Origin: a virus
Direction: 5' to 3' (one strand)
Length of the DNA: 64,000 bases
Virus record (IMG/VR): IMGVR_UViG_3300046467_002136
Location: 32,001-96,000 of that record
Under the pieces are notes generated by a model. It did not search any database, was not told the origin of the DNA, and saw nothing but the letters and a program-made list of their open reading frames with translations. Shown one piece after another: positions 17,240 to 62,800 of the stretch; positions within the stretch are counted from its first letter, which is position 1, and each line of letters opens with the position of its first letter. Made by a program: the position numbers and the translations under genes.

Positions 17240-17287
17240 AAGGCGTACACTATCACGCTATTCTCTCCACATAGGGGAGGAGCTCAT

Positions 17288-17764: not shown

Positions 17765-17777
17765 TAGTTAGCCCTCC

Positions 17778-19268: not shown

Positions 19269-19411
19269 AAGACCTTCCCGTTCCTAATTGGAGCTTCCGG
19301 GTACCGGAGCCACCTTGTTAATTCTACAAAACGCTTCCGCGTATTTGTGTAACTGTTGACTATAGATTATCAGACCAGAAGCTTTCTCTAGTGAGACTTT
19401 ACAGTATGTAC

Positions 19412-24600: not shown

Positions 24601-24935
24601 ACCTGTACCCGCACGTTGGCATTGAGGGTTCGCATCGCATCGATGGATGATCTTAAGGAGAGTAGCTTTTCCCGCTTCGATTTTAGTAGGGCTTCCGATA
24701 TTTTGTACTCAAAGTGTTCGTCAGCCATTTTGTAGTCGGCCCAGGATTCCCGCTCCTTGATCGACCCCTTGGCAGACAGATACTCCTTAGCCCACGCCGA
24801 CTTGTATCTTGCTTCTTTCTTAGCGTTGTCTTCAGCGAGGCTTTCGAAAGCTTCTGTTTCGTTTTCTAACTCGTCAAGGAAATGAAGCAGTCGTTGTTCG
24901 ATCTCAACTTGGCTGATAGGGCCTCTAAAGTTCAT
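24597..24935 (-). CDS. Hypothetical coiled-coil protein
   Basis: 112 aa, helical, with ATGA coupling on both sides. Confidence 0.65.
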   Translation of the reverse strand: MNFRGPISQVEIEQRLLHFLDELENETEAFESLAEDNAKKEARYKSAWAKEYLSAKGSIKERESWADYKMADEHFEYKISEALLKSKREKLLSLRSSIDAMRTLNANVRVQV

Positions 24936-40346: not shown

Positions 40347-43300
40347 ATGACCGAGTTCTCTCCAAAAAAAAGAACCTACCTCTCAGCAAGAATCCGTCGT
40401 AGACGACGAGATTTAGAAGCTGCTGGGCTGGACTTTCTTGAACGTAGAAACGTTCTTGCTGCACAGCCAACCCTTAACGCTCAAATTGTAGTTAAGGCGC
40501 TTGATGGCAGTATCGGAGATTCTCCTGAAAAGGAAAAAGATAAGTCCAAGAAGCGCACAGCTGGTTCAGGGGTTAAAGAGATAGAGCCCGAGGTTCGTTA
40601 CGACCCTAAAGGTGTTCGTGATCCTGGACAAGTTTTCAAACTGCATGTCACTGCTCGTGACCTCAAAACAGGTGAAGACAATTTCGGGTGGATTGATCCG
40701 CCCGAGGCAGTGCCGAAAGAAAAACAGCGCTCCAGTATGGCTGACGCTATGCAGTGGCGGGCAACTCGGCCTCAGATTCGGATACGGACTTACGATCAGG
40801 ACCCAAGAACGGGTCAACCAATCGTTGAGACTGAGGAAGAAATTCAGGTCAAAGGTCTCGGTAGAACCCTCAAAGACACCCTTCCGGGCCAAAGTCTTGG
40901 GGGGCGTGCGGCCAGCGGCCTTGGTCTCATTGTTGACGCTTTAGGAAAATTCCGTTGCCCACCCGGCACTCCGGCGGCCAATCAGTTCACCGACGAGTTC
41001 GGGACAAACTGTTTCTCGCCTGTAGAGATATTACGCGACACAGTCCGGGGTCTTGTCAATAGTCTCAGATCCAGCAGAGGCCGAAGCTGGTCATTACCCG
41101 GTCGAGGCGATAGCGAAGCGGAACAGCTGAGGTCCAATATCGCAGAGCGGCGCGCAGCCGCCGGTAAAGCCGGACAGCTTATTGGTAATACTGCGTCGAT
41201 TGAAGCAGCCTTGATTGAACGCAACACCGTTATTCAATCTTTAATGGATCAGTACGGCATTTCAGCTGGAGACGAACTAAACGAGGATATGTGGTCATTG
41301 TTGGAAGCAATGACCGATGTAGATACCGGTGATTTCCCCGACCTGGAATGGAAAGGATTGTTCACCAGCATGTTCGGAGATGAACTCTGGGATGAAAATC
41401 TTACGATGCGTCAAAATTTGGAAAAGATGCGTGCGGCAGTTCGCGAAGACGTATTCAGTTTCATGGGTGCACAAACCAAAACGGGTGCACAAGCAATCCG
41501 GGATTCGTATAACCATAGAGACCCCAAAGCGATGGCAATGGTTGACGGTCTTGTTGGTCGACACGAATCAGCGATGCGAGGATTCTTAGGTTCGACTCTT
41601 CACGAGTTCGGAGACGATCCGAGAGCCATGAGCGGTCTCAAAAAGATTTCTTTCCGAGCCTACAACCCAGATATTGACGACTTCCAAAGCTATTGGGGTA
41701 CCGAAGGGGAATGTATTCCCCTCTGGGAAGGTACCGGCACCGGGATGGCCACCAAACTCCAATTCAACGCTACTGCCATTGCCCTGCGACCGTTTCAAGA
41801 GGGTGGACTGACTCATGAGGGTCCGGACGGTCGACCAAAACTCGTACAGGTTGATGCTGGAGGCGCCTTTTCGGCATCAGTAACAGACGCCGAGAAATGG
41901 GCGGCAATCGCAGACTTTCTTGCACATACTGAAAAAATGGAATACTGGCATAAACAATATGCAAATGACCTTACTGCCTCTGCTCACGGTGGAAGCCTCG
42001 AAGCCTTTTCCATGCATGTCGGATATCACGAACTTGCACACGTTAAACAGTATCAACAGATCGCACAACGAGTATTAGAAACCTATGAGCGTGATGGTCA
42101 ATTCTCGATTTACAAAAGAGACGGCACTGGACTCGAATTATTAACTGCGAATCCTTCTGAATGGACAAACGAACAGTTCGCTATGGCCGTTGCCTCCACA
42201 TTCCAAGATGCGCTTCCACCCGGCACCACTACCGACTTTCCCCCGATGGACATGGTCCAATTTGAGGGAAGCATGCTGCATCTTCTCGCAGGACAATATT
42301 ACCAAGACCTGGTTCAAGGTTTCCTGCAAGCAACCTCTGGTGGTTATGCAGAAGATATTACTCCGGGTCAATATGTGAGTCCTTTGGACGCCAGAGGACT
42401 ACCTGTTCACAATTCGGCGAAAGCCCACCTCAACCTGTTGTTTCTAGAGGGAACAGCTGAACTAGCGGCTCTTAAACGAACCGGAGGCATCGCAGGCGAC
42501 GAACTCAATGAAGTTCTTGATTGGATGGACGCAGACATAGCAGACGTTGTCTACGGGATTCCAGAGGTTGACGTTCCGTTTAAACCCGGTTCCATTGTTT
42601 CCGACACTGACATGGGTGAAGCGCCTTGGGACACTCCTCTCGAACCGGGCGAAGTTATGACGCCATCAGGCATCATTATTCCGACTAGTGCTGTGAAAAA
42701 GATAGAAGCAGCAGCGGCGAGGAAGAGGCAAGAACGCCAACTAACTACGGAGAAGCGAAAGCTCGAAACTGCTAGACGATTGCGGCATCGAACAGAAATA
42801 CACAGTTGGGGCAGCGGCGGGGACGGTGAAATCAAAACTGCGTCTGATGGAACAAAATATGTTTGGATCGGAGCATTAAGTGGTGAGGGCGAATGGCAGG
42901 TGCTATTTGATGACCTGTTTGAACCAGCATTTCTGGAGGAGCTAGAAGGTGTCACCCCACCCGAAGTGGACTATGACCTTCCACCCGGCATGCGCTCTGG
43001 CGGTATGCGCTCTAGGCGAGAATTGGGCCAATTCGACAACGGACCCAGAGTCGGAAAGTTTTCCGGAGAAACACACGAAGAACCAGACGGCTCAGTCTGG
43101 GAGTTTCGCCCTACTCTTCGGGATCGTCCAGAAAAAGGTGGTTTCTGGCGTGATATGACAGACCCTGCAAACCGACGAGAAATAGCCGAACGCGCCACAC
43201 GCAGACGCCAATTGGAAGCTCAAGAGGGTCGAAGCATGGGACGACTTGCTCGCCCGGGGGCTGGAAGCGAATGGGAAAACATTGTCCGGAGGGGCGATGG

Positions 43301-46300
43301 CGGGATGCGTTCCACAAGGGCCACTGTGGGACAAAGTCTCACTCCCGAGGAGATCAACGATCACGCAATACTTGACGACCTAGAACTAGAACTGGAGAGA
43401 TTAGACGCAGCGTCCCCCACCCTTCTGGGGCGGTTGCGTCAAAAGTTTGGTGGCCACAAAGGGCTCGAACAGCGCAAAGAGAGACACCGAGAGAGTATTG
43501 CAGCCGTTAAGGAAGCATTAGCTGAGGGCAGATTCGTCGAAAGTCTGGATGATTACATAAACCTTACCGACGAAGACAAGATGAAGTTTTTCGGACCTGA
43601 ATACCATGGCAAGCCTCTCGTCGTCACCGCCGATCAGACAGAACTTGCAATGAGAATCATCTTGGATAGTTATCGCCTCAACCCTGACGAATCTGATTCC
43701 GACAAACTCATGCACGTCAAAATTGTTCCCACTGATTCAATTACCGGAGAAGAGATCCAATCACTGCTGCATAAGGAATTCGCTGAGGCATTGGAAAACG
43801 GAATGCCTATTGCAGAGGCGCTAGAACAGGGTAATGACATTGAAGCACAGCGCTTAATCGCAGAGTTCAACGCTAGCGACACCCCATTCATGCTCGGTAA
43901 AGAACATTATGACTTATGTAAGGTTTCCGTAGCGGGCTCAAACATGTTCTGTTATGACCACGAAGGCATATTGCGAAACAGCATGCCTCAGTTCAGTGGC
44001 CCTGTCTGGGATTTCGACACAGAAGAACACCAAAAGGTGTATGAAGACGCTATGACCAAGCTCGCCAACGCAGCCGGTCATGTCGACCCCTCAACGGATG
44101 AGTACGAAGACTGGTTCAAGTCCCCGGAAGGATGGGCCGCTAGGCAGGAAGCCCACAAGGAAGTGTTAGATGCAGGGGGCCAGGCGACGAAAGCCGCAAC
44201 ACTCTGGCATCAACAATTTGAAGAGAAGAAGAGACGACTCATGTCGGAAGGGATGAGCGAAGCAGACGCCCTTCAAGGCGCAGCGGACGCAACCCAGTTC
44301 GGAGCAGATTCCACTCGTCAATTGATCGATCACTTAAGGGCAAACGGTGTTCGGGTCGAGGGTGGATTTGGCAAAGAAGATTTACGGCCCGATTCCGCCC
44401 GGATTGACGCCCCTGGCGATGATCTGGAAACCGGCACAGAGAACCCGATCAAGAAAGCTTTGCTATTTCTTAAGGCCAGTCAGAACGAACTAATCGGACC
44501 CAAGGTGATGAAAGAAGCCCGGAAGGCGACCATAAAACAACCTGACGGGACATACATCAAAAACCCGGACCACTGGCTCTTTAAAGGATTCGATGGTTCT
44601 TCAGATCCGATTTTGGTTACCGACGACGGGTTCATTCTTGATGGTCATCACCGCTGGGCAATGCTCGTAGCGGTTGCCAGTCTGACGGGAGATGAAGACG
44701 AAATTTTGGGCCACAAGAACGTTGTCGTCGTTCATATGCCCATCAACGAAGCCTTGTCTTACGGGGTGGCCTTTGCCGACGATATGGGTATGCAGCGGGC
44801 ACCCGCTGGACCGGATGAAGCTGCCCCACATCCTTCGACGCTTCCTGACGTATCAGGAACGTGGGCGAAACGACAGGCTCTGGCTGACGAGAAGAAAAGT
44901 TTATTGCCTGAAAGTCCGGTCGAAGAACGTGGGATGCGATCCTCCCGTCGCATGCAAGGCGATTTCGACGAAATCACCCGGGTCGGAAAATTCCATGGAG
45001 AAACTCACACAGAACCAGATGGTTCAGTCTGGGAATACCGCCCAACTCTTCGAGATAGGCCCGAACAAGGCGGGAATTGGATTGATCTTTCTGATCCCGG
45101 CATGCGACGACATATGGCTGATCGCGCAAGAAAAAGGCGTCTGGCAGAAGGCGAAGCCGGTGCTTTCGGTGGCTATGACCGTCCTAGAGGGCGTGCAGGT
45201 ATGCGCTCCGAGCGTCTACCTCAAAGGGACGAAGAAACCCGCCCAGGGTGGGACCATGCTCCGCATCGAGGCCGAGGGGTTCCTGATGGTTCGCCGAACC
45301 GCTTCCGTGAGGTACGCGGTGGTCAATATGTCAATAGCGAATGGGACGACATCAGTCGCGGCGGGATGCGTTCCCAGCGCAGAGAAATAGAACTGCGGAA
45401 CATGGAACGTGAAATCCAAGCCGCAGTAGGGCGTGAACGGGCTCTCGAAACAGATCTTCTTCAGCTCCGAGAAGATGAAGATGGTTTCGTTATTACTCGT
45501 GAAGAATTTGACAATTCGGTTGCCGAAATATCTATTGAGCGACAGGCATTGAAGGAGCGTAAGCAGCGACTGCAGCAACAGCACTCGATCCTTAAGCGCC
45601 ATCGCGACAGGGGTTCTAGAACGGGCATGCGGTCGATTCGTGTGAGAAAGCAAAGCGACAACCCCGGCGCAGCAGAAATGATGACCAATCGCAACGCCAG
45701 CTTGGCTGAAGCGATTCCGGATTCAGCGTTCTCTGCTCCCAGTGGTTGGGGAAGCAACTATGGAACTGATCGCACTTCTAGAGCCTTGCCGCCAATCCAA
45801 AGTCGCAGTAGCGCACTCTCGGATCACTATGAAAAACTCGACAGTTCACTGGAAGATTTACTAGGAAGTGAAGACGGGCAATACCTGCAAGGGCCTAACC
45901 TGTCATTTTTGGAGTTCGACCCGGAAGTTGTCGAATTCCTATCCAACCACGAAAAAGACGAAGTTAGTGAGACTATTGCCAAAGCAGCCGTTCAATTCCA
46001 TCGTGGATTCGACCGGAGACCAAGAGTCCTACTCGATTCAGATGAATTTGAAAATCTGTTAGAAACAGGCAGCCACTCCAGACCAGATGTTCCATACGGC
46101 GAAAACAGTGTTGCGGATTTACGCATGGACTATGACCTTCGTAACGGTTTTGACACAAATACCCCGGCGTCTCAGCGTCCGGTAAGTGGACACCTGTATC
46201 ACGCCATGGATGATGACCAAATATCCGAACGCCTCGATGCCATTGATGGGCCGTTGATGGAACGACTCCCTGACTTCTGGGATTCAGAAGGAACGGCCCC

Positions 46301-47078
46301 TTGGGGAGATCCAGCAGCAATGGGTGGAGACATCGACATCGTTTTACGCCCAGAGGTATCCGACAGAACTCATTACGGATCAGGCGACGCTATGGGCCGT
46401 GGGGCCATTCCGACGCCCATGAACTCAAATGACGCAAACGAAATTCTTGCTGCTCAGACCCCACGCTGGAACAGCGGGCAAGAAGATGGTCCCTTCAAAA
46501 ACACTGTGAAAATGCACGACCTGTTAAAAGCGGGGGCAACTGGAAACTATAGAGATCTCTCCCCCGACGGTGAGCACCATGAAGCACAAATCGCTGGGGG
46601 TATCGATATGGACGACATTGAGTTTGTCCGCTATCCGGTCAACAAGCTCAATTGGCGCAATCTCAAACTCAGCGATGCAGATACAGGGAAAAACGACGAA
46701 TCTGCAGCAGCCCGACTGCGCACTGCAGGATTTAGCGATGCCGAAATTGGTTACTTCTATGACGCTATAAGCGATGGGCGAGTTGCAGGTTTACGAAATG
46801 TCAACTGGCTTCGCCAACATCTTGCAGCTCAAAAAGCACAAGAACGATTCGATCGTCTTGGAGTTGATGTCAAATTCACAAACCCAGACGGGATAGACCT
46901 TATGAATGTTGATTCGTTCATGAGCAATCTTCCAGGAGCTATTTCAAGCACAACGCCTGCAGACGTTTTACGCAAACGGATACATCTTGAAATCGCAGAG
47001 CGCGCAACTGAGCTACTTCAAGATATTCGGAAAGAAATGAAGCCAAATCGCAATGCCGCCGCAGGAGTTTTGGTCTGA
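40347..47078 (+). CDS. Giant polyvalent head-region protein (zincin HExxH, ParB-like and DUF3626-like modules)
   Basis: 2243 aa: RCPPG..FTD..C tag, HELAH, ILDGHHRW, EAQIAGG, and 7 GMRS sites. Confidence 0.75.
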   Translation: MTEFSPKKRTYLSARIRRRRRDLEAAGLDFLERRNVLAAQPTLNAQIVVKALDGSIGDSPEKEKDKSKKRTAGSGVKEIEPEVRYDPKGVRDPGQVFKLHVTARDLKTGEDNFGWIDPPEAVPKEKQRSSMADAMQWRATRPQIRIRTYDQDPRTGQPIVETEEEIQVKGLGRTLKDTLPGQSLGGRAASGLGLIVDALGKFRCPPGTPAANQFTDEFGTNCFSPVEILRDTVRGLVNSLRSSRGRSWSLPGRGDSEAEQLRSNIAERRAAAGKAGQLIGNTASIEAALIERNTVIQSLMDQYGISAGDELNEDMWSLLEAMTDVDTGDFPDLEWKGLFTSMFGDELWDENLTMRQNLEKMRAAVREDVFSFMGAQTKTGAQAIRDSYNHRDPKAMAMVDGLVGRHESAMRGFLGSTLHEFGDDPRAMSGLKKISFRAYNPDIDDFQSYWGTEGECIPLWEGTGTGMATKLQFNATAIALRPFQEGGLTHEGPDGRPKLVQVDAGGAFSASVTDAEKWAAIADFLAHTEKMEYWHKQYANDLTASAHGGSLEAFSMHVGYHELAHVKQYQQIAQRVLETYERDGQFSIYKRDGTGLELLTANPSEWTNEQFAMAVASTFQDALPPGTTTDFPPMDMVQFEGSMLHLLAGQYYQDLVQGFLQATSGGYAEDITPGQYVSPLDARGLPVHNSAKAHLNLLFLEGTAELAALKRTGGIAGDELNEVLDWMDADIADVVYGIPEVDVPFKPGSIVSDTDMGEAPWDTPLEPGEVMTPSGIIIPTSAVKKIEAAAARKRQERQLTTEKRKLETARRLRHRTEIHSWGSGGDGEIKTASDGTKYVWIGALSGEGEWQVLFDDLFEPAFLEELEGVTPPEVDYDLPPGMRSGGMRSRRELGQFDNGPRVGKFSGETHEEPDGSVWEFRPTLRDRPEKGGFWRDMTDPANRREIAERATRRRQLEAQEGRSMGRLARPGAGSEWENIVRRGDGGMRSTRATVGQSLTPEEINDHAILDDLELELERLDAASPTLLGRLRQKFGGHKGLEQRKERHRESIAAVKEALAEGRFVESLDDYINLTDEDKMKFFGPEYHGKPLVVTADQTELAMRIILDSYRLNPDESDSDKLMHVKIVPTDSITGEEIQSLLHKEFAEALENGMPIAEALEQGNDIEAQRLIAEFNASDTPFMLGKEHYDLCKVSVAGSNMFCYDHEGILRNSMPQFSGPVWDFDTEEHQKVYEDAMTKLANAAGHVDPSTDEYEDWFKSPEGWAARQEAHKEVLDAGGQATKAATLWHQQFEEKKRRLMSEGMSEADALQGAADATQFGADSTRQLIDHLRANGVRVEGGFGKEDLRPDSARIDAPGDDLETGTENPIKKALLFLKASQNELIGPKVMKEARKATIKQPDGTYIKNPDHWLFKGFDGSSDPILVTDDGFILDGHHRWAMLVAVASLTGDEDEILGHKNVVVVHMPINEALSYGVAFADDMGMQRAPAGPDEAAPHPSTLPDVSGTWAKRQALADEKKSLLPESPVEERGMRSSRRMQGDFDEITRVGKFHGETHTEPDGSVWEYRPTLRDRPEQGGNWIDLSDPGMRRHMADRARKRRLAEGEAGAFGGYDRPRGRAGMRSERLPQRDEETRPGWDHAPHRGRGVPDGSPNRFREVRGGQYVNSEWDDISRGGMRSQRREIELRNMEREIQAAVGRERALETDLLQLREDEDGFVITREEFDNSVAEISIERQALKERKQRLQQQHSILKRHRDRGSRTGMRSIRVRKQSDNPGAAEMMTNRNASLAEAIPDSAFSAPSGWGSNYGTDRTSRALPPIQSRSSALSDHYEKLDSSLEDLLGSEDGQYLQGPNLSFLEFDPEVVEFLSNHEKDEVSETIAKAAVQFHRGFDRRPRVLLDSDEFENLLETGSHSRPDVPYGENSVADLRMDYDLRNGFDTNTPASQRPVSGHLYHAMDDDQISERLDAIDGPLMERLPDFWDSEGTAPWGDPAAMGGDIDIVLRPEVSDRTHYGSGDAMGRGAIPTPMNSNDANEILAAQTPRWNSGQEDGPFKNTVKMHDLLKAGATGNYRDLSPDGEHHEAQIAGGIDMDDIEFVRYPVNKLNWRNLKLSDADTGKNDESAAARLRTAGFSDAEIGYFYDAISDGRVAGLRNVNWLRQHLAAQKAQERFDRLGVDVKFTNPDGIDLMNVDSFMSNLPGAISSTTPADVLRKRIHLEIAERATELLQDIRKEMKPNRNAAAGVLV

Positions 47079-50000
47079 TGAAAGCTATTCATGTTGCCAA
47101 TACGGGTGATAGCCGAATTTATTATCTATTGGAATCAGATAACGACTCTACCGGTGTAGTGGTCAAACGTAATTCTCCTCCAACATTCGTAAACTTTTTT
47201 GCATATGTCTCCAAAAAGCCGCAGATTCAACGTCTTATGGATTCAGATTTTCATAAATTTCTTTGGACTGGCAACAAGGGGAGTTTGAAACCTCGCTGGG
47301 AACACGTCTTCATTGACCGAGTTGCCGAACCGGTTGATTTGTTGGTTGGCGTAAACGTGATCAGCAAATTTAAAACAGACGACGGGCCTAATCGTGTCCG
47401 ACAGATGGAAGAGAAAGCCAATCGAGCTATCGAATATCGATCGCTGGTATCCGCAGGGCTTAACGAAAAAGCTTTTGCTAGGAGTGTCGGCAGAATGGCC
47501 GGTCGTGCAGCAACGGGAGCCGTCAGAGGTTTCCGTAGAGGAGTTCGATTTGATCGACATGCTCGTGACGGTGATTTAGATGGCTTTCTTCAGGAGGGCA
47601 CAGAGTGGGCTAGAGCTGCCACGCCGTCACGAACAGATCTCACTACGCAGGAAACGGTTGGATATAAGCAACCAGGACGACCACGGTTTATGAAAGATAA
47701 GCCGCCAGATCCCACAACTTTGTTTGATGCTTCACGGGAAGAGCTTCGGGCTGCCAAGGGTCGTTATTACCGCTGGAAGAAGGCAGAAGCGGGAGCATCC
47801 GCACACGGCGTCGGTCTTGTCGACCCCGAAGAACTCTTGCAAAGTTGGATCGATTTAGAAAATGAATTGAGTGAAGCGTTTCTTGATGGGCGTCCCATAC
47901 GAACTACTGACGATTTTCGAGAAGTTGCAGCTCAACTTCACAGCGGATTCGGACCCAACCTCAATCAAAAGATGAAAATTGTTTACGATTCGAACGGAGA
48001 TCCGGTAGACCGTAAATATGACATATCGGGGGGCAGCTATTTCGACTTGATTACCCCCGATCGGAAAGGCGACGAAGAGTTATCTCTGTATGAAAGATAT
48101 ACGGCATTAGCTGTCATGAGGGGATTAAGAGATAACCCTGATCTTCAAAACCACACCTTGCAAATTGCTCATGAGGACGATCTGGTCCCGAGTAATCCAG
48201 TCATCAATGGACCCAAAGGAGTTGGAGGTCAAGCGGGCGGTCTGATGGGCTGGAACTGGAAGGTCAACAAGATAGCCCTGCAACTATTGAGGGCTACTAC
48301 GGGTACACGGGAAGAACGAAACAAACGGTTCTCCGAACGCCTTGACGAAATGCTCGAAATTGACAAAGTGCCGTCTCAACGCAATCGTCACCCAAAACCG
48401 AGAATCACTATCGGCTTACGCAAAGAAAAAGATCATTCGAACCTACTTGATTTTGAAATCGGTTTAACTGCTGAATATGCTTCAAAAATGGGTCACAACA
48501 CTGCCACTACTGCTCTGGTTGTCTTAGCGGCCCACCTTGACAATGTGCCCCAGAGTGAACAGGCGTCAGTTGTCAAACGAGGTAAAGCAATTTTTGGAGC
48601 CACGATCGCAACACACGAGTTCTCCGGACATGGAAGTCACACTTCAAATATAAAATCATTTGCAGATAAAGATGCAGGTGGTGATCACAACGCATTAAAA
48701 CGGGCGTTTGAACGAATAAAAGAACATCTAGGAAAGAATCCAATCGCTGACAAAACCGCGCTGGATCTCGATAGCGAACAGATAGACAAAACCGGCAAGG
48801 GTGGTTACAACTTGGCTCATGGAGCATTCGGCCCAAAGGCGATTGTGAGCATGGATAAAGCTTCTGCAAAATTATCAAACCAAGGTAAAGTCCGAGGCGT
48901 TCTAAGTGTCGAACCCGACACTATGGGGGTCGGACAATGGCTGGGTTATCTCGACCAGAAGGAAAAGCCAGGTTCGAATCGAGTTGAGCGACTTCATGAA
49001 TGGTTGAGGCAGCCCATCATGGATGGTGACGGCAACCCATTTACAGCCACTCCCGGACTCGCCCAGTACTTCAACGCATTGGCAGGTGAGGCTGGCCTTA
49101 GTTGGCCGGGTATCGATTTAACAATATCCCAGGGTGAAGAATTAACTCTTGCGCACGTTTTGTACGGGATGTCTCCCAGCATCAACTTCGGAGAAATTCA
49201 ATTGCTTTCCGCCGAAGCCTCCAACATGGGCCTCACCAGATTGTCAGATCATCGAAAGGGTAAATACCTCAGCTACAGGCCAAGAACAGGAACTGCTTCT
49301 GGAGCGAACTGGACTGATATTACTGACAAAGCAATATTTGTACGGGTTGGTGATGATATGAAACCATTAGATAGCATACCCAGTGGTGTGTTGGATCAAA
49401 TACCCTGGTATATGAGCGTAGGCGGCGTAGAGTTATTTGATCAAGGCGTTTTACCCGCACCTACGGTACTCAGGGAACACGGAATACCTGCATTCAAATT
49501 TCCCAATACCCAAGGTTCATCGATTGACTCCTCAGGGCCGCACAGCTCGAACACGAGTTCCAGCGATCCGGTGTCGCCAGAAGATGTCGCACCGTTACTC
49601 GATGCTCATGCAGTAGTAAATCGGATTTTGGCTGATGAAAAATCTTCTATTCCAGTCACTCCACCCCCTGTCACCAATGTGCAAACTGCTTTTAAAGATC
49701 CATTCAACCCTACAGACCTAGAACAACGTGCCAACAAAAAGCGATTGAATGAGGAAGAGGTAAAAAGAAATCAAAACTATTTGGCCAAGCTTCTCAAAGT
49801 GAGATTTAATAAAATCAAAGAATCGAAAAGCGAAGTTGGCACAACAGGATTACCGATTACTGAATTAGTTTCAAATAAAAGTCCTGCACAAAGAGTCGAA
49901 ATAAGACAACGATTAGTTGACCAGCTACTCGCTTCTCTCATCTATGACCACAAATTCATCGACCAAAGCCGACGTTCCAGCACCGCCCGCATCGACAAAC

Positions 50001-50431
50001 CCCGGGGAGAAGGTGGCATAGATGCCATGAGAGATCATCGCGTCTTTGAAGAGGGTGGACCACTCGAAGAGATTCTTAGTAACTTGGTCAGCGCTATTGT
50101 TCAAGACGGCAGCTTCTGGGATGGCTTAAATGACACAGACATCGACCTGCTGAAGAATTTATCAGATAATCTTGGGTATAGGGCTTATGGCAGTTATTCG
50201 GGTGCACACACTCCGCACGCTCTTCTCGACGAGCTAACAGGAGGAGGACGCCACGAACTAGTAGCAGAATTTATGACTCTTATGAATACTGGAATGGATT
50301 TTCCGATTTGGGGTCCGAAAGGCCGTCGACCACTTACCCCTGCGGAAGTTACTGCATTAACCCGCTTATTCAAATGGCTTTCTCCTAAAGGAACGCCAAA
50401 AATACGATCAGGAGGAATCACATATGACTAA
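47078..50431 (+). CDS. Large head-region protein with DGD tag and possible atypical zincin motif
   Basis: 1117 aa: ARDGDLDGFLQEGTEW, THEFSGH and a distal ELVAE. Confidence 0.65.
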   Translation: MKAIHVANTGDSRIYYLLESDNDSTGVVVKRNSPPTFVNFFAYVSKKPQIQRLMDSDFHKFLWTGNKGSLKPRWEHVFIDRVAEPVDLLVGVNVISKFKTDDGPNRVRQMEEKANRAIEYRSLVSAGLNEKAFARSVGRMAGRAATGAVRGFRRGVRFDRHARDGDLDGFLQEGTEWARAATPSRTDLTTQETVGYKQPGRPRFMKDKPPDPTTLFDASREELRAAKGRYYRWKKAEAGASAHGVGLVDPEELLQSWIDLENELSEAFLDGRPIRTTDDFREVAAQLHSGFGPNLNQKMKIVYDSNGDPVDRKYDISGGSYFDLITPDRKGDEELSLYERYTALAVMRGLRDNPDLQNHTLQIAHEDDLVPSNPVINGPKGVGGQAGGLMGWNWKVNKIALQLLRATTGTREERNKRFSERLDEMLEIDKVPSQRNRHPKPRITIGLRKEKDHSNLLDFEIGLTAEYASKMGHNTATTALVVLAAHLDNVPQSEQASVVKRGKAIFGATIATHEFSGHGSHTSNIKSFADKDAGGDHNALKRAFERIKEHLGKNPIADKTALDLDSEQIDKTGKGGYNLAHGAFGPKAIVSMDKASAKLSNQGKVRGVLSVEPDTMGVGQWLGYLDQKEKPGSNRVERLHEWLRQPIMDGDGNPFTATPGLAQYFNALAGEAGLSWPGIDLTISQGEELTLAHVLYGMSPSINFGEIQLLSAEASNMGLTRLSDHRKGKYLSYRPRTGTASGANWTDITDKAIFVRVGDDMKPLDSIPSGVLDQIPWYMSVGGVELFDQGVLPAPTVLREHGIPAFKFPNTQGSSIDSSGPHSSNTSSSDPVSPEDVAPLLDAHAVVNRILADEKSSIPVTPPPVTNVQTAFKDPFNPTDLEQRANKKRLNEEEVKRNQNYLAKLLKVRFNKIKESKSEVGTTGLPITELVSNKSPAQRVEIRQRLVDQLLASLIYDHKFIDQSRRSSTARIDKPRGEGGIDAMRDHRVFEEGGPLEEILSNLVSAIVQDGSFWDGLNDTDIDLLKNLSDNLGYRAYGSYSGAHTPHALLDELTGGGRHELVAEFMTLMNTGMDFPIWGPKGRRPLTPAEVTALTRLFKWLSPKGTPKIRSGGITYD

Positions 50432-50843
50432 ATGGCCCGAACTCTCTGACGAACTCCCGGGTGCTGAATTTTTCACAAAAAACAACGAGCGGGCAGAAAG
50501 ACAAAAACCTTCAACCCAAGATTGGCAAAGCCTGTTAGAACGGGCACTCGGTTATAAACCAAGCCAATGGACTGGACTCAGTCATAGTCGTGACGAACTA
50601 GTTGGGATTCTTCGTCAATTAGAAGATGGATCTGATCCACATGTTGACGACCGAAGAAACCCTATTGAAGAGCGTATCGAACGCTACCAACACAGCAAAC
50701 AACGGACAAGAGATGACAGAGATGAACAGCTAGAGCAGGTTGTGGATCTTGGAAGTTTCTTATTTCCTCAATGGCACACACACAGGGGAAGAACCACTCG
50801 GCCATTGAATCCTGAACACTTCGCCGATCCAGGACTGAATTGA
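50424..50843 (+). CDS. Hypothetical protein (possible immunity/partner)
   Basis: 139 aa, overlapping the upstream stop; AGGAGG RBS. Confidence 0.6.
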   Translation: MTKWPELSDELPGAEFFTKNNERAERQKPSTQDWQSLLERALGYKPSQWTGLSHSRDELVGILRQLEDGSDPHVDDRRNPIEERIERYQHSKQRTRDDRDEQLEQVVDLGSFLFPQWHTHRGRTTRPLNPEHFADPGLN

Positions 50844-50869
50844 ACGTAAACTATTATGGGTGACTACAC

Positions 50870-51514
50870 ATGACAACTGACAGTTACGACATCAAAGGGC
50901 CACAGGACGTTCTACTCGATCTCCCCCAGGAGAGATTGACATCAATTACTCGTGGCCATGGACCAAGACGAGGCAATCTAGAGCGATTGCTTAGATATTG
51001 GCGCCCAATCATGAAAAAGCCCGGCGGGTTCACACGCTGTCGTGTCATTCTTAAAAATCACCCAGAGCTATACCCCCTGGAAAGAATTTGTGCGTGGCTT
51101 CATCACGAAACCACCGGCAAATGGCCCAATGAAGGCTGCCATCATCCGGGTATGAAGAACTGTAAAGGAAAACTTCGAAAGTTGGGATGGACAGATGCCG
51201 AGTGGGGCAAGCGAATACGCAAACGCTTCAAGAAACGTAAAAAAGGTTTTGATGAATCTTGGGATCAGGAAGACGTATTCTTCGGAGACTTCTTAGAGTC
51301 TAAGAGCTCTTATACGACTATAGAGTATAATCCTGTAGTAACTACAAGTGACCTCAAGCATGCTTCAACCGTTTTAGCTGATTTCGTTGTGATGGAAAAG
51401 GACTTCACGTCCTACCTCCGAGATCACAACAATTGGGAATTAGTCGGAGAAGGCGACGACGGCGACGAATGGGTTGCGGATTTCAGCGAAGCTAAGGACT
51501 GTGGGTGCGAATAA
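50870..51514 (+). CDS. Head-associated hypothetical protein with Cys/His motif
   Basis: LLRYW..PGGFTRC...ICAWLHHETTGKWP, a motif I associate with actinophage head proteins. Confidence 0.6.
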   Translation: MTTDSYDIKGPQDVLLDLPQERLTSITRGHGPRRGNLERLLRYWRPIMKKPGGFTRCRVILKNHPELYPLERICAWLHHETTGKWPNEGCHHPGMKNCKGKLRKLGWTDAEWGKRIRKRFKKRKKGFDESWDQEDVFFGDFLESKSSYTTIEYNPVVTTSDLKHASTVLADFVVMEKDFTSYLRDHNNWELVGEGDDGDEWVADFSEAKDCGCE

Positions 51515-51516
51515 AT

Positions 51517-53454
51517 ATGGCGACTTCCTACACCTACACGAAGGAATTGGATTGCTGCGGCGGCTTGGAAGTGCAGGTCAAACGAACAATCTTACGAAAA
51601 CTTGACGACACCATTCCTTCGGGTCTAATCCGGCATACACGCGCATCTGACGAAATCATTGGCGAATACAAAGCCTTATCTCATAGAAATGGAAATACTC
51701 GTCAGTACGACATCAGCGTAACTACCAAAGCGGGTTTAGTCAGATCGGGCTCCCGTCTCGGGCAGGCAGCTCAGGCAGCGGGTTCGATCATCACACCTGG
51801 AAACATTTCTAGAGTTCGAAGTCCCCTACGTTCGGCTGGATGGCGGGCACTCACCCCTGGCCTCCCCGGAGGCGGACGAGGTATTCGCAAACGTGGACGG
51901 GCACACCGATGCCCAGAGGGCTACCAATACGGTGGTCGATTCACTGACAATCAACTATCCACTTGCGGCCAACAACTTTTTGATATTCCATCTGCCCTCG
52001 GTGCAACCATTGCCGCTATCCGCAGAGCCGCTGCCGGTGCACCCACGGCACCCGAAGGTGAGGTAATTCGTGGACGCCCGGGCCGAAACGTTTTACAAAG
52101 CCGTAAGCCAGACATTCCTCGCGTCGGGAACGACAATCGCCAAGAACGTATTCGTGCTACAGGAAAAGTCATAGAAGCCATGGGTAAGCCCGACATAGAC
52201 ACGGCTCGGCTTGTTCGACGCGATGGCTTTCAGCTTGAACCAGTAGTTCCTCCCGCAGTATTGCGCACCATCCCCGACAACAGGGACATGGAAGGCGCCA
52301 CCTACCTAATGAATCTCACATCCGTTGATGGAATGGGTGGCGAAGAGTTGGGTCTCCTCTCCAATACGGGAGTTACCAATATCTCTTACGTTCTTCCTGA
52401 CGGATCTTCTCTTTCTATTGAAAAGGTTCGAGGGCTCACAGTCGGTGAGCGTAGGAAACTGGGCCGCACTGTTAATGCTGCCATGAAAAAAGACAATTCT
52501 AAAGATCCTGCGGCCAGACTGAAATTTGTCGACGAGGAGACCGGAACGGGCATCGCATACACCGAGAACTGGGCAGGATCAGCTCGTTCCGTTGCGGATG
52601 CCCTCAAGTCCAAGCCAGGAAAAACACCCACGGTGGAAGCTGAAGCGCCCGAGGCTGAAGTGCCCGAAGGTGTTGGCGACAAAATCAGTAATGTCAGTGA
52701 CGCTGTAACCCACATCAACGGTGGGGGCAGTCTCGCTGGAATTGATCCATCTATTCTCCAAGCTGCGATGCGAAAAGCGGGTAAAAAACGACCCGGAGGC
52801 ATCATCGAGGTCGGCGATAACCGTTATCTTATGCAGTCTTCGAAAACCGATTTCGACCATTTGCACGTTGCTACGGCAGCGGAAATACAAAATCATCTAG
52901 GTCTGGCAGCATTCCCCCCAGCGTTTGCGGGGAAGGGTGGCAAGCGGCGCGACTACGTTCTCGCTGCTCCATCTATGGATACTGATCGAACATTCGACGA
53001 TGTAGACCCAGCAGACGCGGTACGCATGCTCCTGGCTGACTTAATTCTCGGGGTCAACGATAGGCCGCCCACCGCTGTAGGAATACAAGGCGAAGCAACA
53101 GTACCGACACACATACCGTCTGCACTTGAAGATTTGGATAAAATCAGCATACAAGAGAGAATTGAAGAAAGTATTTCTTCGATGAGACCACTTGCAGATG
53201 AAAGTATATATTCCTCGCATTATCAACAATTACGAATAGCTCAACAGGAAGAATTCCGCAACGAACTTGAACGCCTTCTTGAAAGGGCTCGTACATTCAA
53301 TTTTACTGATTATAAAGATCGCCTTTATCGTGACGGTTCTTTATCTGCAGCCGAAAAAACTCATCTAAATGTTATTCAAACAATTGTTGAAGCTCGCATC
53401 CAAACACTTGCTGCTTCCTATGACGCGATTCTTGACCGCTTGGACGGTAACTGA
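51517..53454 (+). CDS. Head-region protein with RCPxG tag and degenerate HipA/PI3K-like kinase fold
   Basis: ATG at 51517; RCPEGYQYGGRFTD; AAEIQNHLGL...RMLLADLILGVNDRP. Confidence 0.6.
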   Translation: MATSYTYTKELDCCGGLEVQVKRTILRKLDDTIPSGLIRHTRASDEIIGEYKALSHRNGNTRQYDISVTTKAGLVRSGSRLGQAAQAAGSIITPGNISRVRSPLRSAGWRALTPGLPGGGRGIRKRGRAHRCPEGYQYGGRFTDNQLSTCGQQLFDIPSALGATIAAIRRAAAGAPTAPEGEVIRGRPGRNVLQSRKPDIPRVGNDNRQERIRATGKVIEAMGKPDIDTARLVRRDGFQLEPVVPPAVLRTIPDNRDMEGATYLMNLTSVDGMGGEELGLLSNTGVTNISYVLPDGSSLSIEKVRGLTVGERRKLGRTVNAAMKKDNSKDPAARLKFVDEETGTGIAYTENWAGSARSVADALKSKPGKTPTVEAEAPEAEVPEGVGDKISNVSDAVTHINGGGSLAGIDPSILQAAMRKAGKKRPGGIIEVGDNRYLMQSSKTDFDHLHVATAAEIQNHLGLAAFPPAFAGKGGKRRDYVLAAPSMDTDRTFDDVDPADAVRMLLADLILGVNDRPPTAVGIQGEATVPTHIPSALEDLDKISIQERIEESISSMRPLADESIYSSHYQQLRIAQQEEFRNELERLLERARTFNFTDYKDRLYRDGSLSAAEKTHLNVIQTIVEARIQTLAASYDAILDRLDGN

Positions 53455-56400
53455 TGAGACAGTTCGCTATTATCAAAGACGTTAGTTCAGACAAACTTTT
53501 TGCAATTATTGTCAAAGGTGATGATTTTACTGTCTGCCACGGGGTTCATCCTGTTGGCAAACAGTGGGCTGACAGTTACAACAAGGGTTTAACCAAATCC
53601 ATTTATGACGACCTTCAGCCGGGAATTTCGGTTGGGTCGTTCGCTCCGGTAACCACAACAACGCAAGCTTTGATTGATGAGGCAATCGAAGGGAAACCCG
53701 TTCGTTTTCCTGATCACTCACAGCTTACATATGTCAAGTCAGTTAACTACAGATATGACGGAGAAATCCCCCAAGTAAAAGATGCAGGGCTATCAAATCT
53801 GACAGATAAAGATTTCTTTGTTGGGGCAGACTATAAGGGAGTAGCTTTTCGTGCCGATGCTGCAAGACTTTCACTTTTGGCCAAAGCTCGTTTAGGGCAT
53901 TTTGGAACTGATTCTAAAGGTTTCAATTTTACTGAAAAGGGAACAGATCAGAAAGCTCTAAACGAAGAATTGTTTCAAACTGCTCGGGGGTCCGGCAATG
54001 TCCGTCGTGCAGCTAAAGCAGTGCTTTTAGAAAAGCATTTAAACTTAGAGGAACATCCGGGGTATCTCGGAACAAGAGAACATTCGTCACCTATCCGTAC
54101 AAAAGCCAATCGTCTTGGTCGAAGAATTGGCCGAGGAGGAGGCAGAGGTAGGGGTGGCGGAGGTATTCGCAAAATTGGACGATCGATGCAAGACCCGTTC
54201 GATCCAAAGGCTTGGGATGGAGATCATGACGGGATAGTTCAGGAGGGCACCATATGGGAACGCCCTTCAATACCGGGAGTTAACACGAATCTTCCGGGCC
54301 AACGTCGCACCCGAACAAAGCCTCGCAACTACCCAGCCGATGACGCAGACGGTGTCGAATTCAGATTGCGTAATCGTCGTGAAGAAAACCGTGCCCAAAA
54401 TGAAATTCTAAGTACTCCGGTTGGAGAGGTTATTGAAGAATTCCCCGAAGCAACCGAAGCTCTCAGAAACACACTTTCAGGATTCCCTGAAGGCGATGAC
54501 ATCTGGGAAACTCCACTAAGAGACATCACAGATAATGGAGAATACTTCGGTGAGGATGATTTAGATCGACTTCTTGATGCTGCTGTACCACGGCGTCGAG
54601 AAGGTGCCACTGACAGCTTCTATCGCGATGAACAAGGCATGCGCTCCCAAAGAGACGCACCTCCACCTCCTCCGGTTCCCGAGCGTGAAAGTGAGCGTGA
54701 TTTTGGCGACCCGCCTCCTCCCCCGCCTGTACCCGAACGACGCGATTTACCTGAACCGCCAGAGCCTGGACCCCGAGCATCCGCTCCCGCTCCAGAGCCT
54801 CCAGAGCGGAAGCCACAATTAGTTCTACCTCACGCGGGTACGAGCCATGGGCAGATGACCCCTGAACAGCGACGAGAGCAACTCGACGCTATGGAATACG
54901 AAATCCCTGCCGCCAGAGCGAAGTCACGCCAAATGCGAGAAATCGCTCAAGAACGTAATCAAGATCTGAATTTCTTTAGGGGACGAGGCGCAGACGGGAA
55001 ACGCCGAAACCGGCATCGTCCTGGCAGTGAGGCAGCAGCAGAGCGTGGTGAAAAGCCCTCAGGTATGAACGAGAACGCTTGGCATCGCAATGAAACAGAA
55101 TGGCTTCAAAGACAGATCGACAGTGCCAACGAAGGCGTGTACTTTTGGGACCAAACAGATTACCAATGGTCCTTACAGCAGCAGAGTCTGCGAGAGTTTA
55201 ATGCCCGTGGTGAAATGGCAGCCCCCCGGGGTATGCGTTCTGAACGATATGACATCACACAAGATGAAGCTGGCAAATGGCGTGTGATGGATACGGGCAA
55301 CAGAAACATGCGGCTTCCCGAAGAATATGACAACCGCGAGGACGCTTTAAGAGAAGCGATACGAAGAGATAACCCCCGTGGTGGCATGCGATCTACGCGA
55401 CCGCTTACGCCCGAGGAACGTGCTGACCACGAAGAACGATTCGGCCCGGGAACACGAGATGGTACGCGACCGCTTACGCCCGAGGAACGTGCTGACCACG
55501 AAGAACGATTCGGCCCGGGAACACGAGATGGTACGCGACCGCTTACGCCCGAGGAACGTGCTGACCACGAAGAACGATTCGGCATGCGTTCCTCAATTGA
55601 AGTTGGATCTGGACGCCCTAGTGGAGAACGGATCGCCAGGGCGCGGGAAGAAGTCGCCTTGTCAGCTGGACCCCAGCGGACCAGTGATGGCCGTCTGTAT
55701 GACGAACGAACTCACGGAGAACTAGTAGATGCCTTCACAGGTGCAGGATTGTCTATCTCTGAAGCAGAAGCAGAAGCAGATCGGAGAATGCAACATCGAT
55801 TTGGTGACAGGTGGCTGCAACACCCCTTAAACCGTGATCGCATATCTGGTCGAGGCGGCATGCGCTCGGAAAGCGGAGGCGAATCTCAACAAGATCGAAT
55901 CGATCGCCGAGAACGAGGCGAGTTCGACGAAATGACCCGAGTCGGGCGAGCCGCCAGAGAAACTCATGAAGAGCCAGACGGTTCAGTTTATGAATTCCGT
56001 CCTACTCTTCACGACAAACCTGAACGGGGTGGCAATTGGATTGACATTACAGACCCCGGCCAAAGATCTGAAATGGCTAGGCGTGCTACGCAAAGGCGTC
56101 AACACGAAGCCCAAACGGGCACGAGCATGGGGCGGTTAGCGCGACCGGGTGCTGGCAGTGAATGGGATCGAACTACGAGAGGTGGAATGCGCTCTAGGAC
56201 GCGTGATGCTTCAGTAGATCGTGCCTCTCAATTGCAAGGCATGCGCTCAGGCGGCAGACGACGCCGAGGCCAAGCTCAACCTGGACTTGATCGTCACTCA
56301 GACATTGACGGTCAGATTTGGGAAACTCTTACCGACGCTGAAAGAGCACATGTCGGAACGGCGATTGATACAGAAATGCGTAGACGCATGCACGGACTCG

Positions 56401-61465: not shown

Positions 61466-62800
61466 ATGAGCGAGGACACCTCCCGTCTTTCCGAATTGCA
61501 AACCGCAATGCGGACAAAGATGGATACAAACAAGGAGATCGCCGATTCTTTCGAAATCGAAGACGGCGTAGTCCAAGTCGATGCAGAACAGAAAACTGCT
61601 TTCGACAAAAACATGAAAGACATCAAAGAGATCAAAGGTCTCATTGATGGCATTCAGGAGATGGAAAAGACTCGCGAGTGGGGTTCACAGCCCACAACCG
61701 AGTCGGTAGCCGCAGAAGCTGCTGCCGAATGGGCGAGCACCCCTGAGATCAAAGAGGCCGTTCAGCAGTATCGCACTGTTGGCGCCGCCTTCCTTGACTC
61801 TGCGGAGTTCAAAGCCCTTGCCAATGGTGCTGCTGGCGCAAACATGCCTGCTCCGTTCACTGTCCCCGGAAGCCTTGCTTCTAAGGACATTTACGGTCAG
61901 AAAGATGTTTACACCGCTCTGCCGACCGGCACTCCTGGTTCTTTCGGAACCATTCAGCGTGACCCAATCGTCATGCCTCCACAGCGTACAAAGCGTGTTC
62001 GTGACTTGTTCCCGAGCCGCACAACCAACGCTGCTGTCATCGAGTACTTCCGGATGTCCGGCTTCACCAACAACGCTGCTGCAGTGTCTGAGCGCTCAGG
62101 TTCTCCTGAGGTCTTCACGGCCAAGCCGCAGTCGACGTTGGCGTTCGTCGGTGAGCAGGCCCCCGTGCGCACCCTTGCACACTGGGAAGCTGCTCACCGC
62201 AACGTGCTGGCAGACGAGCCGCAGCTCCGGTCGATCATCGACAACGAGCTTCTTTACGGCCTTCGCCTTCAGGAAGATGCGCAGATCATCAGCGGTGACG
62301 GTACCGGTGAAAACCTCACTGGTATCACTGTCGCCACTGGTATCCAGACCTACAGCTGGTCTGCAGGTGCATTCACTCCAGTACCCGACACCAAAGCGGA
62401 CGCCATCCGGCGTGCGGCAACTCTGTCGTTCCTTGCATACTACGAGCCCACGGGCGTCGTAATGCATCCGAACGACTGGGAAGACGTTGAGCTCACCAAA
62501 GATTCCAACGGCCAGTACTTGGTCGCGGTTTCTGTGGCGCTTGGCGGCGAGCCTCGCGTGTGGCGACTCCCTGTCATTGAGACTCCGGCAATGGCTGAAG
62601 GCACTTGTGTCGTCGGTGCATTCGGTACCGGTGCACAGCTCTATGACCGTGAGCAGGCCAGCATTCGGATCAGTGAACAGCATTCGGACTTCTTCATTCG
62701 TAACGCCATCGTGGTGCTTGCGGAGCAGAGGCTCGCTCTCGCTGTGAAGCGCCCTGAAGCGTTCGTGAAGGTTACCTTCAACAACGCTCCGACTTCCTAA
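61466..62800 (+). CDS. Major capsid protein (HK97 fold)
   Basis: Coiled-coil delta-like N-terminus, RVRDLFP, VRTLAHW, IISGDGTGENLTGI, VVMHPNDW, FIRNAIVVLAEQRLALAVKRPEAFVKV. GAGGAGG RBS and strong codon bias. Confidence 0.95.
   Translation: MSEDTSRLSELQTAMRTKMDTNKEIADSFEIEDGVVQVDAEQKTAFDKNMKDIKEIKGLIDGIQEMEKTREWGSQPTTESVAAEAAAEWASTPEIKEAVQQYRTVGAAFLDSAEFKALANGAAGANMPAPFTVPGSLASKDIYGQKDVYTALPTGTPGSFGTIQRDPIVMPPQRTKRVRDLFPSRTTNAAVIEYFRMSGFTNNAAAVSERSGSPEVFTAKPQSTLAFVGEQAPVRTLAHWEAAHRNVLADEPQLRSIIDNELLYGLRLQEDAQIISGDGTGENLTGITVATGIQTYSWSAGAFTPVPDTKADAIRRAATLSFLAYYEPTGVVMHPNDWEDVELTKDSNGQYLVAVSVALGGEPRVWRLPVIETPAMAEGTCVVGAFGTGAQLYDREQASIRISEQHSDFFIRNAIVVLAEQRLALAVKRPEAFVKVTFNNAPTS

What the first reader, a model, noticed from the sequence alone, without database searches (positions are those of the whole stretch)
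43014..56195. A ~65-95-aa cassette occurs three times in two genes, bounded by GMRS: evidence of module shuffling
SEEN: G(Q/D/E)FD..RVG...ETH(E/T)EPDGSV(W/Y)E(F/Y)RPTLxD(R/K)PExGGxWxDx(T/S)DP occurs at ~43026-43313 and ~44958-45150 (ORF 40347) and ~55917-56195 (ORF 53454). Each copy starts a few residues after one GMRS and ends before the next. Copies 1 and 3 also share SMGRLARPGAGSEW..R..GGMRS. INFERENCE: GMRS-to-GMRS segments are the unit of duplication and exchange between genes, perhaps aided by the phage's own Rad52/RecB pair. The cassette is a small protein of unknown function made in multiple copies.
Basis: seen in the sequence. Interest (0 to 1): 0.78.

Follow-up and report, generated by a model that had tools for sequence, protein, structure and literature searches.

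The report
Swappable cassette in phage head polyproteins
A roughly 100-residue protein module of unknown function occurs three times in two giant head-region genes of an uncultured phage. It and its neighbours are gained, lost and moved between genes as whole units bounded by a Gly-Met-Arg-Ser mark, which is probably a protease cutting site although no cutting has been shown.

Summary
Three copies (43014-43313, 44943-45374, 55869-56195) share 58-70% of residues. Each starts 0-13 residues after one GMRS and ends on another. GMRS occurs 19 times in frame, only in four giant genes between portal and capsid, against 0.09 expected.

Site-bounded exchange is supported at nucleotide resolution:
- Relatives carry the cassette in a third gene, the protease fusion, or directly behind a shared tag.
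- One copy is 94.6% identical in DNA between different genes of two lineages with no flanking similarity.
- Two 99%-identical genes differ by a 963-nt indel whose junction abuts the motif.
- Three of four homology breaks against a close relative fall within two codons of GMRS.

Other clades use their own mark (GLSSG; G-[FL]-[RAS]-S). Codon families inside the mark are more uniform than the residues require, so sites seem to spread by copying.

Cleavage is inferred, not shown, and the capsid protein lacks the motif. The cutter could be the S78 head protease or the zincin module. The cassette is an orphan: only two true hits among 1.84 billion representatives, and no fold match.

This scan noted the same cassette and punctuation earlier on other genomes (e1-5327413, e1-5327411, e1-5783827). 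I found no paper on it.

The parts
43014..43313 (+). Cassette copy 1 (gene C residues 890-989), ending on GMRS 43302-43313
44943..45374 (+). Cassette copy 2 (gene C residues 1533-1676). The core runs to an extra internal GMRS at 45198-45209; the stretched tail ends on GMRS 45363-45374. Its C-terminal half resembles L011 rather than the close relative G001
55869..56195 (+). Cassette copy 3 (gene G residues 806-914), with a 13-residue N-terminal extension, ending on GMRS 56184-56195
42987..43013 (+). Two GMRS marks five residues apart (42987-42998 and 43002-43013), immediately upstream of copy 1
44931..44942 (+). GMRS mark immediately upstream of copy 2
55857..55868 (+). GMRS mark upstream of copy 3
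40347..47078 (+). Gene C, 2243 aa, seven GMRS marks. It has conserved N- and C-terminal segments and a HELAH zincin-like motif at 42027-42041
53454..58184 (+). Gene G, 1576 aa, seven GMRS marks. Its variable middle zone runs 54636-56249
55242..55394 (+). Second mobile mini-cassette, 51 aa (gene G residues 597-647), bounded by GMRS. It lies before the main cassette here and after it in gene A of L011
33243..38474 (+). Gene A, 1743 aa. An S78 prohead protease domain (33312-33749) is fused to a punctuated cargo region with six G-[ML]-R-S marks
58498..61242 (+). Gene I, 914 aa, with two GMRS marks plus one GVRS and one GLRS variant. A Zeta-toxin-like kinase module starts right after the last mark
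31150..33144 (+). Portal gene; upstream limit of the head-cargo block
61466..62800 (+). HK97-type major capsid gene with an N-terminal delta-like region. Downstream limit of the block; contains no GMRS
27207..29064 (-).

Best explanation
The cassette is one of about 25-30 modules strung into four giant proteins encoded between the portal and capsid genes. The modules are separated by a short mark, consensus x-(G/S)-G-M-R-S-x-R.

Shown:
- The mark is a protein-level motif confined to these genes, and it is a conserved island inside variable, polar linkers.
- Whole site-to-site segments are what is duplicated, deleted, replaced and moved between genes and lineages.
- Each gene keeps its N- and C-terminal segments and varies in the middle.

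Inferred:
- The giants are loaded into the procapsid. One is fused to the head protease, and the protease fusion (gene A) and genes G and I (plus, more weakly, gene D, which has no marks) share a tag that in A, G and I is followed by a mark.
- A phage protease cuts them at the marks, most likely the S78 prohead protease and otherwise the zincin module of gene C.
- Each segment would then be an independent product that is packaged and probably ejected. On that reading the cassette is made as a roughly 100-residue Arg-rich protein in three copies per set of chains.
- Because every joint is the same short mark in a flexible linker, any in-frame site-to-site rearrangement gives a working chain. 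The shared DNA form of the mark (GGN ATG CGN TCN) may also serve as microhomology for such events.

The biochemical role of the cassette is unknown. A weak model suggests a three-stranded sheet plus a helix.
For: - Motif statistics and codon variation.
- Three copies.
- Purifying selection on the copies.
- Architecture strings with conserved ends and variable middles.
- Cassette in a different gene in relatives.
- A 94.6% identical 222-nt tract between gene G of L140 and gene A of L011, with no flanking similarity.
- An 82% identical 1,245-nt module shared by gene G of L141 and gene A of L011; its protein alignment ends on GMRS in both.
- Ends of between-gene alignments lie within 10 residues of a mark in 42% of cases, against 9.5% for random positions.
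- Junctions at nucleotide level.
- The mark is kept while its flanks diverge.
- Flanks are less hydrophobic than average (0.18 against 0.25).
- Clade-specific versions of the mark, with an independent 130-residue duplicated cassette bounded by GLSS.
- S78 protease fused to gene A.
- Shared tag followed by a mark.
- Codon-family bias inside the mark.
- Precedent for head proteases cutting several head proteins at a short motif: PMC10052503.
- Proposal that polyvalent proteins are processed into units: PMC5512222.
Against: - No cleavage, packaging or ejection has been measured, and there is no cultured relative. The closest cultured capsid proteins are 48% identical, and those phages lack the mark.
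- The capsid protein and portal carry no G-[ML]-R-S, and no co-varying site was found in the capsid delta region. In T4 and phiKZ-like phages the same motif also marks the capsid protein.
- A mark 10 residues from the C-terminus of a G004 protein and tandem marks 5 residues apart fit a binding motif as well as a cutting site.
- Indels tend to fall in disordered linkers whatever the mark does.
- The high-identity transferred tract stops 16-76 nt short of the marks, so the mark is not always the crossover point.
- No stand-alone gene for the cassette exists in 1.84 billion representatives.
Confidence: 0.6

Rival explanations
1. The mark is not cut. It is a short linear motif in flexible linkers, for example a docking or modification site recognised by one partner. 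The cassettes would stay as domains of intact giant proteins. Modular gain and loss would simply reflect tolerance of indels in disordered linkers.
For: - Marks lie in polar linkers.
- A mark sits 10 residues from a C-terminus in G004.
- Tandem marks occur 5 residues apart.
- The capsid protein has no mark.
- Clade-wide switching of the mark fits co-evolution with any single binding partner.
Against: - Junctions fall on the mark itself rather than anywhere in the linker.
- A head protease is fused to one of the marked chains.
- The tag-then-mark order resembles a targeting peptide that is removed.
- The known analogues are cleavage motifs (PMC10052503).
Confidence: 0.25
2. The marks are cut, but by the conserved zincin-like module at the N-terminus of gene C (or by a host protease) rather than by the S78 head protease. 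Cutting might happen after ejection into the host.
For: - A HExxH motif is conserved at about residue 560 of gene C in all four head modules examined, including the GLSS clade.
- The capsid protein lacks the mark, unlike substrates of known head proteases.
- PMC5512222 proposes that zincin domains process polyvalent proteins.
Against: - The zincin assignment rests on the motif alone; Pfam and PHROGs give no match.
- The S78 domain is a confident match and is physically fused to a marked chain.
- Presence or absence cannot separate the two candidates, since both are in every module examined.
Confidence: 0.2
3. The mark is mainly a DNA-level feature: a recombination hotspot or microhomology (GGN ATG CGN TCN). 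Its peptide would be a by-product.
For: - The L016/L017 junction lies at the motif codons.
- Arg is CGN in 64 of 68 marks and Ser is TCN in 59 of 66, against backgrounds of 74% and 61%.
- In G004, Ser is TCT in 16 and 17 of 23 marks, against a 23% background.
Against: - The mark occurs only in one frame of one strand, and only in these genes.
- Third codon positions vary freely in this clade.
- The residues are kept where flanking DNA and protein have diverged.
- Other clades keep a chemically similar peptide with different DNA.
- The 94.6% identical tract excludes both marks.
- The TCN bias is also expected if sites spread by copying under selection for Ser.
Confidence: 0.07

Closest known systems
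Polyvalent proteins of phages and conjugative elements (Iyer, Burroughs, Anand, de Souza, Aravind 2017; PMC5512222)
   Same: Giant multi-module proteins encoded among virion genes. They are thought to travel with the DNA and to be processed into units, and they show extensive mosaicism. A zincin-like motif is present in one chain.
   Different: That paper defines no cutting or junction motif. It finds the assemblin-like peptidase only at C-termini, whereas here it is N-terminal. Most modules here, the cassette included, match no described domain.
Head-protease processing of internal and ejection proteins in T4 (gp21) and phiKZ-like phages such as SPN3US (gp245, A-X-E motif; PMC10052503)
   Same: A head protease and a short recurrent motif in several head-associated proteins. 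N-terminal targeting regions are followed by a site.
   Different: There the cuts mostly remove N-terminal propeptides: 14 sites in 9 substrates. The same motif also marks the capsid protein (from my own knowledge of T4 and phiKZ; not checked in a paper here). Here there are up to seven marks per chain dividing it into domain-sized modules. The motif is G-hydrophobic-R-S rather than x-x-Glu, the capsid protein lacks it, and the protease is of the HK97 S78 type.
Phage P1 Dar proteins (DarA, DarB, DdrB, Hdf; discussed in PMC5512222)
   Same: Large head-packaged anti-defence proteins encoded by late genes. Some are proteolytically processed before or during packaging.
   Different: They are separate genes, not punctuated chains. 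No repeated junction motif and no cassette exchange have been described.
Polyproteins of RNA viruses
   Same: It works like them if the marks are cut: one chain, one repeated protease signal, many products.
   Different: This is a DNA phage with several chains. The products would be cargo rather than replication machinery, and module content varies between close relatives.

Membership tests
Polyvalent proteins (PMC5512222) | Two to fifteen unrelated domains in one polypeptide of a phage or conjugative element | tested here: met
   Cutting at the marks gives 5-8 segments per chain, falling into unrelated families. A Zeta-toxin-like kinase and DUF3721 lie in gene I, and S78 lies in gene A.
Polyvalent proteins (PMC5512222) | Zincin-like metallopeptidase hub domain | tested here: inconclusive
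   A HExxH motif is conserved at about residue 560 of gene C in four head modules. There is no Pfam or PHROGs match.
Polyvalent proteins (PMC5512222) | Delivered into the recipient cell with the DNA | not testable with these tools
   Only gene position between portal and capsid, and fusion to the head protease, suggest packaging.
Head-protease-processed internal proteins (T4, phiKZ, SPN3US type) | A prohead protease is encoded in the head module | tested here: met
   PF04586 Peptidase_S78, E 1.3e-10; phrog_80, E 1.7e-26.
Head-protease-processed internal proteins (T4, phiKZ, SPN3US type) | A short recurrent motif at which head proteins are cut | tested here: inconclusive
   The motif is present and highly enriched. 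Cutting could not be tested.
Head-protease-processed internal proteins (T4, phiKZ, SPN3US type) | The same motif marks the major capsid protein or scaffold | tested here: not met
   There is no G-[ML]-R-S in the capsid protein or portal. No conserved or co-varying site appears in the delta region of 80 relatives.
Head-protease-processed internal proteins (T4, phiKZ, SPN3US type) | N-terminal capsid-targeting peptide removed at the first site | tested here: inconclusive
   Genes A, G and I share a tag, and gene D has a weaker match. In A, G and I a mark follows it; gene D has no marks. In L140 and L141 the cassette sits right behind this mark. Gene C lacks the tag.
MuF-fused polymorphic toxins of phages | MuF (SPP1 gp7-like) domain at the N-terminus | tested here: not met
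   No MuF family appears in the Pfam or PHROGs scans of any giant.

The most novel reading that the evidence does not exclude
A large uncultured phage group, with at least 413 capsid relatives in IMG/VR, runs a true polyprotein system for head cargo. Clade-specific punctuation peptides (GMRS, GLSSG, G-[FL]-[RAS]-S) would be read by a co-evolving phage protease. Because the punctuation is also kept alike at the DNA level, it would double as the joint at which cassettes are copied and swapped between genes. Protein processing and recombination would then share one signal, making the injected arsenal evolve by cassette exchange.
Probability: 0.4. Interest if true: 0.85.

Novelty: new variant of a known kind. 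Interest (0 to 1): 0.6.

Why it matters
If the marks are cut, these phages deliver dozens of small and mid-sized proteins from a few chains, and they renew that set by whole-module exchange. That would be a simple, readable grammar for finding packaged effectors in metagenomes: cut at the mark and treat each segment as a protein. It would also give a defined protease and site pair for experiments. The nucleotide-level junctions and the codon-family bias add a testable link between a protein-processing signal and the recombination that shuffles the modules. Polyvalent-protein studies have reported mosaicism without any boundary rule.

Tried and rejected
- **Cassette fold.** AlphaFold2 on a five-sequence alignment gave mean pLDDT 60.5: three short strands, one helix and a disordered tail. 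Foldseek against PDB found nothing at E 0.001 or better. VIA-align gave a best Z of 3.8 (COMM, Pur-alpha and PC4-like rows), which is within noise. The ESM Atlas gave no usable hit.
- **Cassette relatives.** A profile search of 1.84 billion representatives gave six hits. Only two are real, both from this phage clade; the others are repetitive proteins, plus one weak 112-residue protein. No stand-alone gene was found.
- **Basic DNA-condensing peptide idea.** Rejected. The cassette is 17-19% Arg but its net charge is -1 to +3.
- **Capsid cleavage site.** I looked for a site that co-varies with the mark. A small-Leu-small-Ser stretch near residue 137 looked promising in two clades, but close relatives that still use GMRS do not keep it.
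- **Separating the two proteases by presence or absence.** Not possible; both are present in every module examined.
- **Gene split at a mark.** The only split found (L036) is a single in-frame TGA at a different place.
- **ParB-like segment as a complete stand-alone protein elsewhere.** Only partial-coverage hits were found.
- **Cultured relatives.** Gordonia and Brevibacterium phages lack the mark. Megablast of the region against 50,697 phage records found nothing.
- **Literature.** A search for the peptide motif returned only the unrelated GmrS restriction protein.
Full report
**Setting.** The window is bases 32001-96000 of a 114-kb uncultured IMG/VR virus record. A block of large plus-strand genes lies between the portal gene (31150-33144) and an HK97-type capsid gene (61466-62800):
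- Gene A (33243-38474, 1743 aa) starts with an S78 prohead protease domain (PF04586, E 1.3e-10).
- A 600-aa gene follows.
- Gene C (40347-47078, 2243 aa).
- Gene D (1117 aa).
- Three smaller genes.
- Gene G (53454-58184, 1576 aa).
- Gene I (58498-61242, 914 aa), which has a Zeta-toxin-like kinase at its end.

A terminase, a Rad52-family protein and a PD-(D/E)XK nuclease lie just upstream on the other strand. The closest cultured capsid proteins, from Gordonia and Brevibacterium phages, are only 47-48% identical. Those phages have no comparable giants or marks.

**The observation.** The three copies are real.
- Copy 1 is gene C residues 890-989. Copy 2 is residues 1533-1676. Copy 3 is gene G residues 806-914.
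- The 68-residue cores share 63-66% of residues and 64-68% of bases. dN/dS is 0.1-0.3 with synonymous sites near or at saturation. They are therefore old copies kept by selection, not a fresh duplication.
- Each ends exactly on a GMRS and begins 0-13 residues after one.
- Copy 2 has an added internal GMRS and a stretched tail. Its C-terminal half resembles the copy in L011 rather than the orthologous copy in the close relative G001, which has the same tail as copies 1 and 3. So even within a cassette there is mosaicism.

**The mark.**
- GMRS occurs 19 times in frame in genes A, C, G and I, with five more L or V variants. The expectation is 0.09. It occurs in no other genuine frame of the window.
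- Third codon positions vary, so the peptide is what is kept.
- The extended consensus over 60 sites from four lineages is (G/S)-G-M-R-S-x-R.
- In alignments of gene A from six relatives, the mark is an island of identity in otherwise variable stretches, with one Ala-for-Ser variant.
- The flanks are less hydrophobic than the rest of the proteins: 0.18 against 0.25, and no bootstrap sample was as low.
- Relatives with 54-65% portal identity use other marks at equivalent joints. One clade uses G-[FL]-[RAS]-S followed by Arg. Another uses GLSSG followed by Arg or Lys, 12 times in one protein against 0.09 expected.
- Among 80 capsid relatives at 69-97% identity, GMRS, GLRS or GVRS is the most enriched tetrapeptide in many. 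The family is large: 413 capsid matches in IMG/VR.

**Exchange of site-bounded units.** I cut every giant from seven related records at the marks and clustered the pieces. Each gene keeps its first and last segments and varies in between.

The cassette is found in several positions:
- in gene C (twice) and gene G in this phage and in G001;
- in gene G in G002;
- in the protease-fusion gene A in L011, preceded by a GFRS variant and followed by the 51-residue mini-cassette that precedes it here;
- in gene G of L140 and L141, immediately behind the shared tag and its GLRS mark.

Further evidence of transfer:
- The L140 copy and the L011 copy are 94.6% identical over 222 nt while nothing else in the two loci matches at the DNA level. 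This is a recent transfer between different genes of different lineages.
- A second module of about 400 residues is shared by gene G of L141 and gene A of L011, at 82% DNA and 75% protein identity. The alignment ends on GMRS in both.
- Across all between-gene alignments, 42% of ends lie within 10 residues of a mark, against 9.5% for random positions. This figure is diluted by the shared tag, which is not a cassette.

At nucleotide level:
- Gene A of L016 and gene A of L017 are 99.2-99.5% identical but differ by a 963-nt indel running from one mark to another. The junction is in the codon just before the motif.
- Against L010, the four homology breaks in gene G fall at 54649, 55227, 55393 and 55877. 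These are 0-2 codons from three GMRS marks and 4-10 codons after a fourth.
- The GLSS clade has its own 130-residue cassette, duplicated within one protein and bounded by its own mark.

**A DNA-level signal inside the mark.**
- Across five clade-A records, Arg in the mark is CGN in 64 of 68 cases (background 74%, p 4e-5). Ser is TCN in 59 of 66 (background 61%, p 1e-6).
- In G004, both Ser codons are TCT in 16 and 17 of 23 marks, against a 23% background.
- TCN and AGY cannot interconvert while Ser is kept. The simplest reading is that marks mostly arise by copying older marks together with cassettes, not by point mutation.
- Kept DNA likeness that favours site-to-site recombination is also possible. 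I could not decide between these readings.

**What the mark does.** Cutting by a phage protease is the best reading, but it is inferred.

In favour:
- A head protease is fused to one marked chain.
- Genes A, G and I share a roughly 50-100-residue tag that is followed by a mark. Gene D has a weaker match to the tag but no marks. In A, G and I this is the order expected of a targeting peptide that is later removed.
- Enzymatic modules begin right after marks.
- The mark changes clade by clade as one set.
- Head proteases of large phages are known to cut many head proteins at one short motif (PMC10052503).
- Processing of polyvalent proteins into units has been proposed (PMC5512222).

Against:
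- The capsid protein and portal have no mark, and I found no co-varying site in the capsid delta region.
- A zincin-like HExxH is equally conserved in gene C, so the cutter is not identified.
- Marks very near a C-terminus or in tandem fit a binding motif too.

**The cassette itself.** It is an orphan.
- A profile search of 1.84 billion representatives found only two true hits, both giants of this clade, and no stand-alone gene.
- The model is weak (pLDDT 60.5): three short strands, a long helix and a disordered tail up to the mark.
- No fold search gave a trustworthy match, and the ESM Atlas gave nothing.
- It is Arg-rich but close to neutral, so a simple DNA-condensing role is unlikely.

**Comparison and novelty.**
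- The system works like protease-processed head cargo (T4, phiKZ, SPN3US) and like polyvalent proteins.
- It fails one defining feature of the first group (the same motif in the capsid protein). It differs from the second in having an explicit junction mark and an N-terminal assemblin-type protease.
- I found no paper describing the mark.
- Earlier agents of this scan noted the same punctuation, and the same cassette, on other genomes. My results agree with theirs. The nucleotide-level junctions, the near-identical inter-gene transfer and the codon-family bias are tests I ran here.

Noticed in passing
window 34461-34739, 54099-54392, 59119-59355; weaker at about 47480-47755: A shared 50-100-residue tag (Gly/Arg-rich stretch, then an Asp-rich DxDxD-like motif and a conserved Gln-Glu-Gly-Thr stretch) occurs in genes A, G and I and weakly in D. 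It is kept in distant clades and is followed by the first mark in A, G and I. It may be a capsid-targeting or docking element.
   Followed up: partly
L040 (G004) 12121-19650; L025, L027, L037 gene A: Other clades of the family use different punctuation: GLSSG followed by Arg or Lys (12 times in one protein), and G-[FL]-[RAS]-S followed by Arg. L041 and L045 use an RLSSG form.
   Followed up: partly
G004 gene A residues about 960-1090 and 1508-1638 (L040): An independent 130-residue cassette is duplicated within one protein. Both copies start after and end on the clade's own GLSS mark. One copy has an extra internal mark.
   Followed up: partly
all marks in window genes A, C, G, I; G004 module: Codon families in the mark are more uniform than the residues need. 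In clade A, Arg is CGN in 64 of 68 marks and Ser is TCN in 59 of 66. In G004, Ser is TCT in about 70% of marks against a 23% background.
   Followed up: partly
window 55395-55583: Nearly three tandem copies of a 23-residue unit fill the segment between two GMRS marks in gene G. The whole segment is absent from L010 and G001.
   Followed up: partly
window 60550-61239 and 58534-58626: Gene I ends in a Zeta-toxin/AAA_33-like kinase module (PF06414, E 4.4e-10) that starts right after its last GMRS. It begins with a DUF3721 domain.
   Followed up: no
window 42027-42041: A HELAH motif in the first segment of gene C is conserved at the same place in G001, G003 and G004. G004 has a second HExxH module in another giant. 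No profile match supports a zincin assignment.
   Followed up: partly
L036 5034-5036: An in-frame TGA splits the gene A orthologue between the protease region and the tag, where the close relative L035 reads Leu. This could be a sequencing error, a pseudogene or read-through.
   Followed up: no
P0010 (112 aa, from the representative library): A small protein made of two tandem repeats weakly resembles the cassette core (E 3e-4). It may be chance.
   Followed up: no
window 8952-9806 (-), 22688-23815 (-), 23812-24600 (-), 24932-25804 (-): These ORFs match, in order: an endosialidase-chaperone (Peptidase_S74) tail-fibre end, a PAPS-reductase-like protein, a ParB_N protein and a 2OG-Fe(II) oxygenase.
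   Followed up: no
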